From NCBI RefSeq assembly GCF_000406145.1, contig NZ_CM001976.1, positions 4,639,545 through 4,671,544 on the forward strand: a stretch of DNA of 32,000 nt, in the 5' to 3' direction. The position numbers are program-made. Numbering within the stretch: position 1 is the stretch's first letter; every line of letters starts with the position of its first letter. This stretch comes from Dickeya dadantii NCPPB 898. Lineage in GTDB: Bacteria; Pseudomonadota; Gammaproteobacteria; Enterobacterales; Enterobacteriaceae. Positions 12,001 through 15,000 of the stretch are shown one piece after another.

Positions 12001-15000
12001 CCTGAGAAGGCAGCATCGGCCAGCTATCAACCAGCCCCGCCACCACCGACTCCAGCATCGCCTGATGGCAATCGGAGCGCATCGGCACCGTCTTCAGTTG
12101 ATACAGCTTTTCCATCATGCGGCGCTGCCCTTCCCGCAGCCGATGCGAGTCCCCCAGTTCTCCCAGGGGAAAACGCCGGATGTGTTCCGGCGCTTCATGA
12201 TGAATGTCATTAAGGCAAAACATGCCGGTCTCCGATGAAGCTCGCACGGTTACCGTCCCCATGTCGCACAAAACGCTCATGACGCTCATGACGCTCATGA
12301 CGCTCATGACGCTCATGACGCTAATAGTGAAGCTATGTCGCAGCAACACCGTTCATGACCCATGATCGAACGCAGTCAATCTACAGACACTTTGCCAAAA
12401 AACGAGTTTTGTTTTTATCCGCAGTTGCCGCCGCCTTGTTTTCAGAACGCTTTTATCTCAAAAATGGGATTAATGCGCTAAAACATGGGATTGTGTCGAC
12501 AAAACAGCAAAAAAATCGGTTTGATAATGGGACGACGCAGAAAAGCGCGCGGGGCATCCCCCGCGCGCGTTATGCCGACAGTCTCATCCCACCAGGCTGG
12601 GAGGTGATTGTTGATACTGGATGACGCTAGTCAGTTCGTCGATCCCTGGCGCTTTCAGCATGCTGTAGTGATCCGCCATCAGCTCCAGCACCGTGGGCGG
12701 CTGGGCGGAAAACCCGCCGTGATTCTCAATAAACGAGTAATCATCGCCCTGCGCCTTGATGATGGTTACCGGCGCATTCAGTTGCCGCTGCTGTAGCTCG
12801 CTGAAGGTATAGGTGAACTCGAAGGTTTGCGCCACAATGCGGGTGATCCGCCGTACCAGCCCGTCATCCAGCGCCGGGTTGAGCCCGGTGATAAAGGCCA
12901 CAAAGCTCCCCTCGTCGCGTACCGTTTCCAGACAGCGCTCCAGTTCCGGGTCGGTAATACTGCCGATAAATACCGAGAACAGGATGGTCAAATAACCGGG
13001 GTTATCAAAATCCGCCTTACGGTTCATGGCGGCCACCCGCTCATCGCGCAGTTTCGGCGAACCGGGCGCCAACAGGTACAAGTTTTCCACCACCTCGCCC
13101 GCCAGCTCCAGTTGCCAGGCGGTTTCGAACGCGACGCGCGCGCCGAAAGAGTAGCCCCACAGCGTATAAGGCCCGTGCGGCTGGTGCTGGCGAATTAGCT
13201 CAATATCTCTGGCCGCCATCTCGCCGATGGTGGCGTAAGGCGTCTCGTCCGGATTGATGCCGTGCGCCTGAATGCCAAAGAATGGTCGCTCCGCGCCCAG
13301 TTGGCGCGCCAGCAGCCGCAGGTTCATGCAGTAACCGCCCAGACCCGGCCAGCAGTAGATTGGCGCCTGACGCCCTTTGGGCTGCAACTGAACCAGACGG
13401 GACACCGGTTCCTGACGCGCGCGGCTCAGCCACGCCGCCAGTTTTTCAACGGTGGGCGCCTGAAACAGCACCTGCAGCGGCAGGCTGGCGTTCAGCGTCG
13501 CATTCAGCTCATTGATCAGGCTGACGGCGATCAGCGAGTTACCGCCCGATTCGAAGAAATTGTCATCCACCGACATCTCCTCGCGTTTCAGTTTCGCCTG
13601 CCAGATAGCCATGACCTGATGTTCCAATGGGTTACGGGGCGCGACGATCGTTTTGTGCTTCAGTTCGACATTAATATTCGCCAGCGCTTTCATGTCGATT
13701 TTGCCGTTTGCCGTTAGCGGCATCTCATCAAGAATCAGCACTTTGTTCGGCATCATGTAATCCGGCATGAACGCCGCCAGGTCGTCACGAATCATCTCCG
13801 CCGGCCCTTTCATGTGCACGGCGTCTTCCCTCATGCCCTCGCTGTATTTCTGCTCGTCGCTGATGCGCCCGCCAATAAAGAAATAATATGGCCCGGTACG
13901 ATGACCGAGAATCTGCCAGAAGCGGCGGGCGGCGGGTAGATCGTTGCCGGTTTCCGAGCTGTAACCGGAAGACATCAGCCCGATATTCAGGGGGTTCATC
14001 TGCAAGCGCTGCAGTTTACGCCCCACATGCACGTACCCGGCCCAGCCTTCGGTCCGACTGGCGACGCTGATGCCGAACGACGAGCGCTCATACACCGCCT
14101 GATTGATGGCGATAACATGTTTCTTATCAATGACGTCATCGGCAATGTGCTGCAGGTCGCCGCGAACGTAGCGGTACGTTCCAACCGGCAGGTCGGCGAT
14201 GTTCGTACCGGCGGTCTGCACGTAAATATCCAGATCGTCATCCGCCGGCAAACGCGGCCCGGACAGCACATCGCAGGCACCCAGATAGTCATCGTCCGGG
14301 TTAATGGCCAGCGGCGTCGGATCCAGCGCCGCGGCGTCGCACAGCGCCACGCCCAGGCCATAATCCGGCAGGATGATATCCAGCATGCCGATGATGTGCC
14401 CCATCTCCATTTGCAACACTTCCCGAATGTTATTTTTGTAGATGGGTTCAATCGCGCTCTTCTTGCCGACAAAGTGTAGCCGCAGGCTGCCCGGCGTCAC
14501 CGCTGCCTGCTCGCTGACCCGCACCAGTTGGTGATGCACCGGCTGATAATAGTAATGCCCGGCGGTCAGCCCGGCCACGCCGTTCAGTTCCAGAAAAACC
14601 TGGGTGGCATACAGCGCGCCCGGCGAAGCGTAGGTATATTTGGGCAGCAGCCGCTCCGCGCTGGTGAACTGGCCCAGATAACGCAGCCAGTGCCCCAGTT
14701 CATCCAGCGTCAGAGCATCCGGCCGGCGCGAAATGGCCGTCAGCAGCGGCTCATGCAGCAGCGACAGAATATCGTCACGGCTCACGGCGCCGCCGTCGTA
14801 AAACCGATAGGTCTTGCGGGAAAACGCGGTGAGGCGCTGTTTCTCATCCGGCTGCTTGCCCGGCAAATCGAGGGTATACGGCTGGCTGGCGGCCGGAAAC
14901 TCCCGGCAGCCTTTATTCGCCAGCTGCAACATCACCTGTGCCTTATCGGCTTTGGACTGATGGTGTGAACCGTGATTGCCCTGATCCATCAGCGCCGCTT

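What the first reader, a model, noticed from the sequence alone, without database searches (positions are those of the whole stretch)
12464..12535. Three phased copies of the same TCCCAT motif upstream of the KAS III-like/ACP operon
On the transcribed (minus) strand, TCCCAT occurs three times in direct orientation (plus-strand ATGGGA at 12464, 12485 and 12527). The spacings of 21 and 42 bp are two and four helical turns. That matches the 21-bp periodicity of AraC-family direct-repeat half-sites. The segment 12481-12492 is the exact reverse complement of 7107-7118, and 12526-12535 is identical to 7138-7147. The distal copy abuts the indC terminator, so the operon has its own activator-dependent promoter and is not driven by read-through from indC.
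Basis: seen in the sequence. Interest (0 to 1): 0.65.

Follow-up and report, generated by a model that had tools for sequence, protein, structure and literature searches.

The report
Probable VfmH enhancer sites upstream of vfmA
The three phased TCCCAT copies are real and conserved, but they look like half-sites of a 14-bp palindrome that is most likely bound by the quorum-sensing response regulator VfmH, not by the AraC-type regulator VfmE.

Summary
The window is a Dickeya dadantii-type vfm quorum-sensing locus: indC, vfmAZBCD, vfmE, vfmFGHIJ. ATGGGA sits at 12464, 12485 and 12527 (gaps 21 and 42 bp), and both quoted matches to 7107-7147 are exact.

A phased hexamer triple alone is weak evidence, since 24% of shuffled windows contain one. 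However, six of the window's ten copies lie in the vfmA and vfmE upstream regions. The 42/21 spacing is unchanged in seven Dickeya genomes.

TCCCAT is half of a dyad, TCCCAT-N2-ATGGGA. It is perfect upstream of vfmE, 66 bp before a conserved sigma-54 promoter that fits the published start site. Dyads also occur upstream of vfmE and vfmA homologues in Musicola, Rahnella and Pseudomonas, and upstream of vfmE in Lonsdalea. They are absent from the vfmK promoter, which VfmE reportedly binds. VfmH, a sigma-54-type enhancer-binding protein, reportedly binds only the vfmA and vfmE promoters.

Best reading (about 0.68): these are VfmH enhancer sites.

A separate conserved box, GCAA-N7-YAAAAA over the -35 region, is a better AraC/VfmE candidate.

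An independent, activator-dependent vfmA promoter is supported. Complete absence of indC read-through is not shown.

The parts
12519..12532 (-). Site 1 (distal): TCCCATTATCAAAC. It has a strong TCCCAT half (12532-12527) and no recognisable second half in this strain. It begins 12 nt after the indC terminator stem.
   Evidence: GTCCCA/GTCCCG is conserved 42 bp upstream of site 2 in seven Dickeya genomes.
12477..12492 (-). Site 2: AATCCCATGTTTTAGC. The half-site AATCCCAT is invariant in Dickeya, and the right half is not conserved.
   Evidence: Invariant block 12492-12485. The 21-bp distance to site 3 is fixed.
12456..12471 (-). Site 3 (proximal): AATCCCATTTTTGAGA, an imperfect dyad TCCCAT-N2-TTGAGA (10 of 12 positions). 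The dyad centre is at 12462.5.
   Evidence: The second half is YGRRA in all eight genomes. The invariant block is 12471-12465.
12545..12568 (-). indC intrinsic terminator: a 10-bp G+C stem, a 4-nt loop and a TTTTCT tail.
   Evidence: The published termination site 4740546 maps to 12556 or 12577 depending on the anchor.
12411..12428 (-). GCAACTGCGGATAAAAAC box (GCAA-N7-YAAAAA). Its YAAAAA part sits 17 bp upstream of the -10-like hexamer. It is the candidate AraC-type (VfmE) activator site.
   Evidence: The same geometry occurs upstream of vfmA in 12 genomes of four genera, and at the vfmK and vfmQ promoters. It is the only match to this pattern in the 32-kb window. Assignment to VfmE is inference.
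12389..12398 (-). TTGGCAAAGT, invariant in all eight genomes. Read here as an extended -10 element (TGg-CAAAGT) of a sigma-70-type promoter. It has no conserved sigma-54 -12 GC.
   Evidence: The published vfmA start site maps to 12381 (indC anchor) or 12360 (vfmE anchor).
11291..12262 (-). vfmA, a KAS III-like gene. The likely start is the ATG at 12262, giving 323 aa. It is the first gene of vfmAZBCD.
   Evidence: Pfam ACP_syn_III_C. Homologues are 318-329 aa and align from this ATG.
7109..7122 (+). vfmE upstream site a: TCCCATGTTTGGCA, an imperfect dyad. Its centre lies 108.5 nt upstream of the vfmE start site.
   Evidence: AAAATCCCAT is invariant. It sits 88 bp before TGGCA in seven Dickeya genomes and in Lonsdalea, and 89 bp in Musicola.
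7131..7144 (.). vfmE upstream site b/c: the perfect palindrome TCCCATTAATGGGA. Its centre lies 86.5 nt upstream of the vfmE start site.
   Evidence: TCCCA-N4-TGGGA is kept in all eight Dickeya/Musicola genomes. It is identical in Rahnella and near-identical in Pseudomonas.
7197..7211 (+). Sigma-54 promoter of vfmE: TGGCACACAATTTGC, with GG at 7198-7199 and GC at 7210-7211.
   Evidence: Conserved in every genome examined. The published vfmE start site 4735214 maps to 7224, 13 nt after the GC.
7331..7894 (+). vfmE, a 187-aa AraC-family regulator.
   Evidence: Pfam HTH_18 and HTH_AraC only. Named VfmE by NCBI for 95-97% identical proteins.
1980..3380 (-). vfmH, a response regulator with a sigma-54-interaction AAA+ domain and a Fis-type HTH_8. 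It is the proposed binder of the TCCCAT dyads.
   Evidence: Pfam Response_reg, Sigma54_activat (1.8e-66) and HTH_8. The recognition helix SRSAFYRRLEK and the GAFTDA loop are invariant from Dickeya to Pseudomonas.

Best explanation
The three TCCCAT copies are the strong half-sites of three binding sites for VfmH. [quoted passage not shown]

The full site is a 14-bp dyad, TCCCAT-N2-ATGGGA. Upstream of vfmA, site 3 is a 10/12 dyad. Sites 2 and 1 are half-sites, placed two and six helical turns further upstream on the same face of the DNA. Three sites could nucleate a VfmH oligomer of three dimers, that is, one hexamer.

The same dyads are spaced 22 bp apart and sit 66 and 88 bp before a canonical sigma-54 promoter at vfmE. 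There, VfmH would act as a classical enhancer-binding protein.

At vfmA the core promoter looks sigma-70-type: an extended -10 element TGgCAAAGT, with a GCAA-N7-YAAAAA box over the -35 region. VfmH bound upstream probably co-activates with an activator at that box, most likely VfmE.

What is shown and what is inferred:
- Shown here: motif anatomy, conservation, spacing, distribution, and the fit between the sigma-54 promoter and the mapped start site.
- From the literature, at fragment level only: VfmH binds the vfmA and vfmE promoters.
- Inferred: that VfmH contacts these particular bases, and how it activates a promoter without -24/-12 elements.
For: 1. Symmetry.
- Site b/c upstream of vfmE is a perfect palindrome kept in eight Dickeya/Musicola genomes. 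It is identical in Rahnella, TCCCATTAATGGGA.
- The weak halves of site 3 and site a keep the G and the A of TGGGA in all Dickeya/Musicola genomes examined. Equivalent weak halves (CGAAA, CGGAA, TGGAA) occur in Lonsdalea, Rahnella and Pseudomonas.
- The orientation of the strong half flips between Dickeya and Pseudomonas/Rahnella while the sites persist. That is expected for a symmetric dimer, not for an orientation-dependent AraC-type monomer.

2. Context.
- The dyads lie 66 and 88 bp before a conserved TGGCAC-N5-TTGC element.
- The position of that element fits the published vfmE start site.
- A sigma-54 promoter needs an enhancer-binding protein, and VfmH is the one encoded in the cluster.
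- The dyads are the only upstream elements shared across genera.

3. Distribution.
- In the window, the dyad pattern occurs only in the vfmA and vfmE upstream regions.
- In the 20-kb Pseudomonas, Rahnella and D. poaceiphila loci, every strict hit is in those regions too.
- No copy occurs in 650-900 bp upstream of vfmK in three loci, nor within about 360 bp of the vfmF start site.
- Reported binding: VfmH binds the vfmA and vfmE promoters only in strain 3937, plus vfmF (which shares the vfmE intergenic region) in strain EC1. VfmE binds vfmA, E, F, K, pelE and celZ.

4. Position. The dyad centres lie 81.5, 102.5 and 144.5 nt upstream of the vfmA start site (or 102.5, 123.5 and 165.5 nt with the other anchor). 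This is close to the 86.5 and 108.5 nt seen at vfmE.

5. DNA-binding helix. The VfmH recognition helix is invariant across genera that share the motif.
Against: - No direct motif-level binding data were available. The primary papers (Nasser 2013; Lv 2019) could not be read, so the binding statements are second-hand.
- VfmE also binds the vfmA and vfmE promoter fragments, and its second helix-turn-helix is equally conserved. Protein conservation therefore does not discriminate.
- The vfmA promoter has no conserved GG-N10-GC, so a classical enhancer mechanism cannot be claimed there.
- VfmH carries GAFTDA instead of GAFTGA, and RpoN was not recovered in a published pull-down.
- Sites 1 and 2 are only half-sites.
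- The pelE and celZ promoters, which are VfmE-only targets, could not be inspected.
- The vfmK test used related species, not the window's own strain.
Confidence: 0.68

Rival explanations
1. One reading: the TCCCAT copies are direct-repeat half-sites for the AraC-family activator VfmE. VfmE would bind with 21-bp periodicity and activate the vfmA promoter, and would auto-activate vfmE.
For: - VfmE is reported to bind the vfmA and vfmE promoters and to activate all vfm operons, including its own.
- The same-orientation copies 21 and 42 bp apart resemble the araI1-I2 periodicity (established knowledge).
- The spacing is conserved.
- The HTH regions of VfmE are conserved in the genera that keep the motif.
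Against: - The motif is absent from the vfmK promoter and from the proximal vfmF promoter, both reported VfmE targets.
- The conserved core is 8-12 bp and palindromic, not a 17-20 bp asymmetric site.
- Orientation is not conserved between genera.
- The nearest copy is at least 83 nt upstream of the start site and none overlaps the -35 region.
- VfmE has no recognised dimerisation domain.
- The vfmE promoter is sigma-54-type and would still need separate VfmH sites, for which no other conserved dyad exists.
- A different conserved box at the -35 region (GCAA-N7-YAAAAA), shared with the vfmK and vfmQ promoters, fits an AraC/MarA-type class II site better.
Confidence: 0.17
2. The sites are shared or composite. 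Either both VfmH and VfmE (or a VfmH-VfmE complex) recognise the TCCCAT elements, or a third conserved factor such as Fis, IHF or PecS binds them.
For: - Both regulators shift the vfmA and vfmE promoter fragments.
- Fis and IHF bind the vfmE promoter in D. zeae.
- PecS influences vfm expression.
- Both VfmH and VfmE bind c-di-GMP, which hints at coupled control.
Against: - TCCCAT-N2-ATGGGA does not resemble the Fis, IHF (WATCAANNNNTTR), CRP, KdgR or PecS consensus sequences (established knowledge).
- The predicted IHF site at vfmE lies elsewhere, 73-99 nt before the start codon.
- The motif follows vfm-type clusters into Pseudomonas and Rahnella. This argues for a cluster-encoded binder.
Confidence: 0.12
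3. The phased copies are a chance pattern in A+T-rich intergenic DNA and have no function.
For: - A phased triple of some hexamer appears in 24% of shuffled windows.
- The degenerate dyad pattern is not over-represented in the window as a whole: 4 matches against 2.2 expected.
Against: - Two copies are among only five invariant blocks of the spacer in seven species.
- The spacing is identical in all seven.
- The motif recurs at the vfmE promoter.
- It also occurs in four other genera at the equivalent promoters.
Confidence: 0.03

Closest known systems
LuxO enhancer sites upstream of the sigma-54 qrr promoters in Vibrio (established knowledge)
   Same: - A quorum-sensing response regulator of the NtrC family, with receiver, sigma-54 AAA+ and Fis-type HTH domains.
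- It binds short dyads (TTGCA-N3-TGCAA, 13 bp) about 100 bp upstream of sigma-54 promoters.
- Half-site spacing and distance to the promoter are similar to TCCCA-N4-TGGGA at vfmE.
   Different: - The sequence motif is different.
- The VfmH target is a protein regulator gene (vfmE) plus a biosynthetic operon (vfmA), not small RNAs.
- VfmH has GAFTDA rather than GAFTGA.
- The vfmA promoter lacks -24/-12 elements.
GlrR (QseF) sites at glmY/glmZ (PMC3045617)
   Same: - Three activator sites more than 100 bp upstream.
- IHF involvement.
- Related promoters in different species are sigma-54, sigma-70 or both, downstream of the same kind of upstream sites.
   Different: - GlrR sites are TGTC-N10-GACA.
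- Where glmZ became sigma-70-only, the GlrR sites were lost. Here the dyads are retained upstream of a sigma-70-like vfmA promoter in every genus examined.
NtrC at glnAp2; FleQ and VpsR at sigma-70 promoters (established knowledge; VpsR in PMC6158489, listed)
   Same: - Multiple phased dyads that nucleate an AAA+ oligomer (NtrC).
- Enhancer-binding-protein homologues that bind c-di-GMP and can activate sigma-70 promoters (FleQ, VpsR). VfmH also binds c-di-GMP.
   Different: - VpsR lacks the residues needed for sigma-54 contact.
- VfmH appears to keep a sigma-54 target (vfmE) as well.
AraC araI1-I2 direct repeats, and MarA/SoxS/Rob marboxes (established knowledge)
   Same: - 21-bp periodicity of same-orientation repeats, as at araI.
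- An AraC-family regulator is encoded in the cluster and activates this operon.
   Different: - AraC half-sites are about 17 bp and asymmetric, and the proximal one overlaps the -35 region.
- Binding two such half-sites needs a dimerisation domain, which is not detected in VfmE.
- The marbox-like element in this promoter is the GCAA-N7-YAAAAA box, not TCCCAT.

Membership tests
AraC-family direct-repeat operator (araI-type) | Half-sites of about 17 bp, asymmetric, each contacted by two helix-turn-helix motifs | tested here: not met
   The conserved core is AATCCCAT (8 bp) with T-rich flanks. The full site is a 14-bp palindrome.
AraC-family direct-repeat operator (araI-type) | Promoter-proximal half-site adjoins or overlaps the -35 region | tested here: not met
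   The nearest copy (12469-12464) is 83-88 nt upstream of the start site mapped at 12381, or 104-109 nt upstream of 12360. A different box occupies the -35 region.
AraC-family direct-repeat operator (araI-type) | The motif is present at the other promoters bound by the same regulator (VfmE: vfmK, vfmF, pelE, celZ) | tested here: not met
   Absent from the vfmK upstream region in L084, L085 and L086. Absent within about 360 bp of the vfmF start site. pelE and celZ were not available.
AraC-family direct-repeat operator (araI-type) | The regulator has a dimerisation domain, allowing two half-sites 21 bp apart to be bound | tested here: inconclusive
   VfmE is 187 aa and only HTH_18 and HTH_AraC are recognised, at residues 69-143. 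Its short N- and C-terminal extensions have unknown oligomeric state.
AraC-family direct-repeat operator (araI-type) | Fixed orientation relative to the promoter | tested here: not met
   The strong half points downstream in Dickeya and upstream in Pseudomonas, Rahnella and D. poaceiphila.
Bacterial enhancer-binding-protein upstream activating sequence (NtrC/LuxO type) | Dyad-symmetric sites of 13-17 bp | tested here: met
   TCCCATTAATGGGA is perfect. Site 3 and site a match 10 of 12 positions. Sites 1 and 2 are half-sites only.
Bacterial enhancer-binding-protein upstream activating sequence (NtrC/LuxO type) | Two or more sites, helically phased, about 80-150 bp upstream of the start site | tested here: met
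   At vfmE the centres are 86.5 and 108.5 nt upstream. At vfmA they are 81.5, 102.5 and 144.5 nt upstream, or 21 nt further with the other anchor. The spacings of 22, 21 and 42 bp are conserved.
Bacterial enhancer-binding-protein upstream activating sequence (NtrC/LuxO type) | A downstream sigma-54 promoter (GG-N10-GC) | tested here: inconclusive
   Met at vfmE: TGGCAC-N5-TTGC is conserved in all genomes and fits the mapped start site. Not met at vfmA: TGGCA is conserved but no -12 GC is.
Bacterial enhancer-binding-protein upstream activating sequence (NtrC/LuxO type) | A cognate enhancer-binding protein with a DNA-binding domain is encoded nearby and is required for expression | tested here: met
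   VfmH has Response_reg, Sigma54_activat and HTH_8 domains. The literature reports that it is required for vfmE transcription and that it binds the vfmA and vfmE promoters.
Bacterial enhancer-binding-protein upstream activating sequence (NtrC/LuxO type) | The protein contacts these particular bases | not testable with these tools
   This needs a footprint, or EMSA with mutated sites.

The most novel reading that the evidence does not exclude
VfmH is a dual-mode enhancer-binding protein. From the same TCCCAT-N2-ATGGGA sites it drives a canonical sigma-54 promoter (vfmE). It also co-activates a sigma-70 extended -10 promoter (vfmA) together with the AraC-type VfmE bound at a marbox-like GCAA-N7-YAAAAA box. 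This two-promoter logic would be conserved in vfm-type signalling clusters from Dickeya to Rahnella and Pseudomonas.
Probability: 0.3. Interest if true: 0.6.

Novelty: new member of a known kind. Interest (0 to 1): 0.45.

Why it matters
Vfm is the dominant virulence quorum-sensing system of Dickeya. Its signal molecule is still unknown, and no operator sequence for either regulator appears in the papers I could read.

A defined VfmH box (TCCCAT-N2-ATGGGA) and a candidate VfmE box would have several uses:
- The two arms of the positive feedback loop could be separated genetically.
- The VfmH regulon could be predicted genome-wide.
- Cleaner biosensors could be designed.

The analysis also indicates that vfmE is transcribed from a sigma-54 promoter. 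Published work left this open because VfmH has GAFTDA and RpoN was not pulled down.

Finally, the same cis-regulatory logic accompanies vfm-like clusters outside Dickeya.

Tried and rejected
- **Sigma-54 promoter at vfmA.** TTGGCAAAGT looks like a -24 element, but no GG-N10-GC is conserved in Dickeya, Pseudomonas or D. poaceiphila. Rahnella has a weak one only.
- **Lonsdalea as a discriminator.** Its vfmE sits apart from the other vfm genes but still has the dyads and the sigma-54 promoter. The test is therefore uninformative.
- **DNA-binding helix conservation.** Both the VfmH and the VfmE helices are conserved, so this does not discriminate.
- **Rfam scan of the whole window.** No hits, so there is no RNA-element explanation.
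- **Statistics on the triple alone and on the degenerate dyad count.** Neither is significant by itself.
- **Simple offset mapping of the 3937 start sites.**
  - The window is not collinear with the 3937 coordinates. The offsets are 4727948, 4727972, 4727990 and 4727969/70 in different segments.
  - The vfmA start site is therefore 12360 or 12381, and the vfmF start site 6732 or 6750.
  - I favour 12381 and 6750 because they fit conserved -10-like hexamers.
- **VfmJ look-up.** It failed because there is no exact match on record.
- **Primary papers.** Nasser 2013 and Lv 2019 are not held.
- **GCAA box at vfmE and vfmF.** The box does not occur in the vfmE or vfmF promoters, so it does not explain all reported VfmE binding.
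Full report
**Locus**

The window is a Dickeya dadantii-type vfm quorum-sensing locus.
- Pfam and ORF analysis give, on the minus strand:
  - vfmJ;
  - vfmI (histidine kinase);
  - vfmH (receiver, sigma-54 AAA+ and HTH_8 domains);
  - vfmG and vfmF (ABC exporter);
  - vfmD, vfmC, vfmB and vfmZ;
  - vfmA (KAS III-like; ACP, MatE and hydrolase partners);
  - indC.
- The AraC-family gene vfmE lies on the plus strand at 7331-7894.
- Both published primers for the 3937 vfmE regulatory region match the window exactly.
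- The finding lies in the 234-bp spacer between the indC stop and the vfmA leader.

**Observation**

All stated facts hold.
- ATGGGA is at 12464, 12485 and 12527, with gaps of 21 and 42 bp.
- 12481-12492 is the reverse complement of 7107-7118, and 12526-12535 equals 7138-7147.
- The indC terminator is a 10-bp G+C hairpin at 12568-12545, ending 12 nt before the distal copy.

On statistics, the triple alone is weak. Some phased hexamer triple appears in 24 of 100 shuffles. The hexamer is, if anything, rare in the window, with 10 copies against 16.5 expected. What matters is that six of the ten copies sit in two promoter regions, and that the copies are conserved.

**Conservation**

I collected the locus from these sources:
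- D. undicola
- D. oryzae
- two further Dickeya assemblies
- D. lacustris
- a D. zeae-like assembly
- Musicola keenii

Results for the indC-vfmA spacer of the seven Dickeya genomes:
- Only five blocks of 6 bp or more are invariant. They are AATCCCAT (site 2), AATCCCA (site 3), TGCGGA, AAAAACAAAA and TTGGCAAAGT.
- Site 1 is GTCCCA or GTCCCG.
- The 42/21-bp spacing is identical in all seven.
- D. lacustris and Musicola lack indABC entirely, yet keep these elements downstream of pecM.

**What the motif is**

Upstream of vfmE the hexamer appears as a perfect palindrome, TCCCATTAATGGGA, at 7131-7144. A further copy lies 22 bp upstream at 7109. Across all eight genomes these sit exactly 66 and 88 (89 in Musicola) bp before TGGCAC-N5-TTGC, a canonical sigma-54 promoter.

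The D. dadantii 3937 transcriptome map places the vfmE start site 107 nt before the ATG. In the window this is 7224, 13 nt after the GC of that promoter.

Site 3 at vfmA (TCCCATTTTTGAGA) and site a at vfmE (TCCCATGTTTGGCA) are 10/12 dyads. Their weak halves keep the G and the A of TGGGA in every genome. Sites 1 and 2 are half-sites.

The architecture extends beyond Dickeya:
- Lonsdalea vfmE has TCCCA dyads 88 and 66 bp before the same sigma-54 promoter.
- vfm-like clusters in Rahnella and two Pseudomonas have TCCCATTAATGGGA or close variants. They also have a second dyad 41-42 bp away and a TGGCAT-N5-TTGC promoter upstream of vfmE.
- The same clusters have TTCCA-N4-TGGGA dyads upstream of vfmA. 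D. poaceiphila shows the vfmA arrangement.
- In those 20-kb loci every strict dyad hit lies in these two promoters.
- The orientation of the strong half is inverted relative to Dickeya.

**Which protein**

The accessible literature gives these binding sets, citing Nasser 2013 and Lv 2019:
- VfmH binds the vfmA and vfmE promoters only in strain 3937. In strain EC1 it also binds vfmF, which shares the vfmE intergenic region.

I retrieved the vfmK upstream region from three loci. It contains no TCCCAT and no dyad. The vfmF start site is at least 359 bp from the nearest copy. The motif distribution therefore equals the VfmH set, not the VfmE set.

A sigma-54 promoter at vfmE also requires enhancer sites. 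[quoted passage not shown]

The VfmH recognition helix (SRSAFYRRLEK) is invariant from Dickeya to Pseudomonas. However, the second HTH of VfmE is conserved too, so that argument is neutral.

VfmE is 187 aa with only the AraC DNA-binding domain detected.

**The vfmA core promoter**

No sigma-54 -12 element is conserved downstream of the invariant TTGGCA.

Instead, twelve genomes of four genera share one fixed geometry:
- a GCAAYT-N5-YAAAAA box;
- then 14 nt;
- then TGn;
- then a -10-like hexamer (CAAAGT, GATTAT or GACGAT).

This reads as a sigma-70 extended -10 promoter with a marbox-like box over the -35 region. The same box, 17 bp (19 bp in D. zeae vfmK) from a -10 hexamer, occurs at the vfmK and vfmQ promoters. 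It is the better candidate for the AraC-type VfmE site, but this is inference. It is not found at vfmE or vfmF.

**Start-site mapping caveat**

The window is not collinear with the 3937 coordinates, and the offsets differ by 18-42 nt between segments.
- The published vfmA start site (4740350) maps to 12360 if anchored on vfmE. It maps to 12381 if anchored on the indC start.
- 12381 lies 8 nt after the invariant CAAAGT hexamer, and I prefer it.
- The matching terminator coordinate falls in the hairpin loop under the other anchor, so this stays open.
- Either way, all three TCCCAT copies lie well upstream of the -35 region. The dyad centres are 81.5, 102.5 and 144.5 nt upstream, or 21 nt further.

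**Read-through**

The terminator is strong. The map lists a strong internal start site and marks indC-vfmA co-transcription 'invalidated'. However, the same paper treats indC-vfmAZBCDFG as one unit with long reads. An independent, activator-dependent promoter is supported. Total absence of read-through is not.

**Verdict**

The mechanism most likely involves VfmH enhancer sites (0.68) rather than AraC half-sites (0.17).

How VfmH would activate a promoter without -24/-12 elements is unresolved. Co-activation with VfmE at the GCAA box is my working model.

No operator motif for either regulator appears in the papers I could read.

Noticed in passing
window 12273-12322: A perfect 9-bp tandem repeat, ACGCTCATG x 5.6, lies in the vfmA leader between the mapped start site and the likely ATG at 12262. 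On the vfmA strand each unit carries an ATG in frame with vfmA, giving (SVM)n. Copy number differs between close strains, and the repeat is absent in D. zeae and D. oryzae.
   Followed up: partly
window 7197-7211: vfmE has a canonical, universally conserved sigma-54 promoter (TGGCAC-N5-TTGC) that fits the published start site. The accessible papers do not call vfmE sigma-54-dependent, and they question whether the GAFTDA loop of VfmH contacts sigma-54. GAFTDA is conserved in every VfmH orthologue examined.
   Followed up: yes
window 12411-12428; L084 9627 and 17211; L086 9626 and 17288: A GCAA-N7-YAAAA box lies 17 bp (19 bp at vfmK in L086) upstream of a -10 hexamer at the vfmA, vfmK and vfmQ promoters. 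It is marbox-like and a candidate VfmE operator.
   Followed up: partly
L083, L087, L088 (whole loci): Pseudomonas and Rahnella-like contigs carry syntenic vfm-like clusters: vfmAZBCD, vfmE, an extra membrane-fusion protein gene, vfmFG, vfmH, vfmI and a phosphopantetheinyl transferase gene. Protein identity is 43-51%, and the promoter motifs are the same. Several papers call the vfm cluster unique to Dickeya.
   Followed up: partly
L003-L007, around 9780-10555: Lonsdalea species have a vfmE 85% identical to the window's, with no other vfm gene within 10 kb except a weak vfmJ-like ORF. It still carries the two TCCCA dyads and the sigma-54 promoter. A VfmL-like decarboxylase exists elsewhere in Lonsdalea.
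   Followed up: partly
window 6784-6804: An invariant 21-bp block, TTTATCTCTGGTTTTAAAAAT, overlaps the -35 region of the vfmF promoter if the start site is 6750 (with -10 TAAGAT at 6763-6758). It is probably another activator site. It is unlike both the TCCCAT dyad and the GCAA box.
   Followed up: no
window 7174-7184 and 12407-12417: TAAAAACAA lies 12 and 9 nt upstream of the TGGCA element in the vfmE and vfmA promoters respectively. It is invariant in Dickeya in both places, and its meaning is unknown.
   Followed up: no
window about 17130-17330; L084 about 9010-9150: An ERIC-like repeat (…GAATCCCCGGGCGCTTACCAAGGTAAGTGACCGGGGTGAGCG…) lies in the indB-indC spacer. A similar element sits in the expR-vfmK spacer of a D. 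fangzhongdai-like strain. It was recognised from memory of the ERIC consensus.
   Followed up: no
window 1-3600 and 7900-17400: The window is close to D. dadantii 3937 (primers match) but is not collinear with the published 3937 coordinates. Segment offsets differ by 18-42 nt. The vfmJ ORF (180-620) is shorter than the annotated 3937 unit and has no exact match on record.
   Followed up: partly
L078 and L080, 9570-10001: D. lacustris and Musicola keenii lack indA, indB and indC, and vfmA directly follows pecM. The indigoidine genes are therefore a variable insertion next to the vfm cluster.
   Followed up: no
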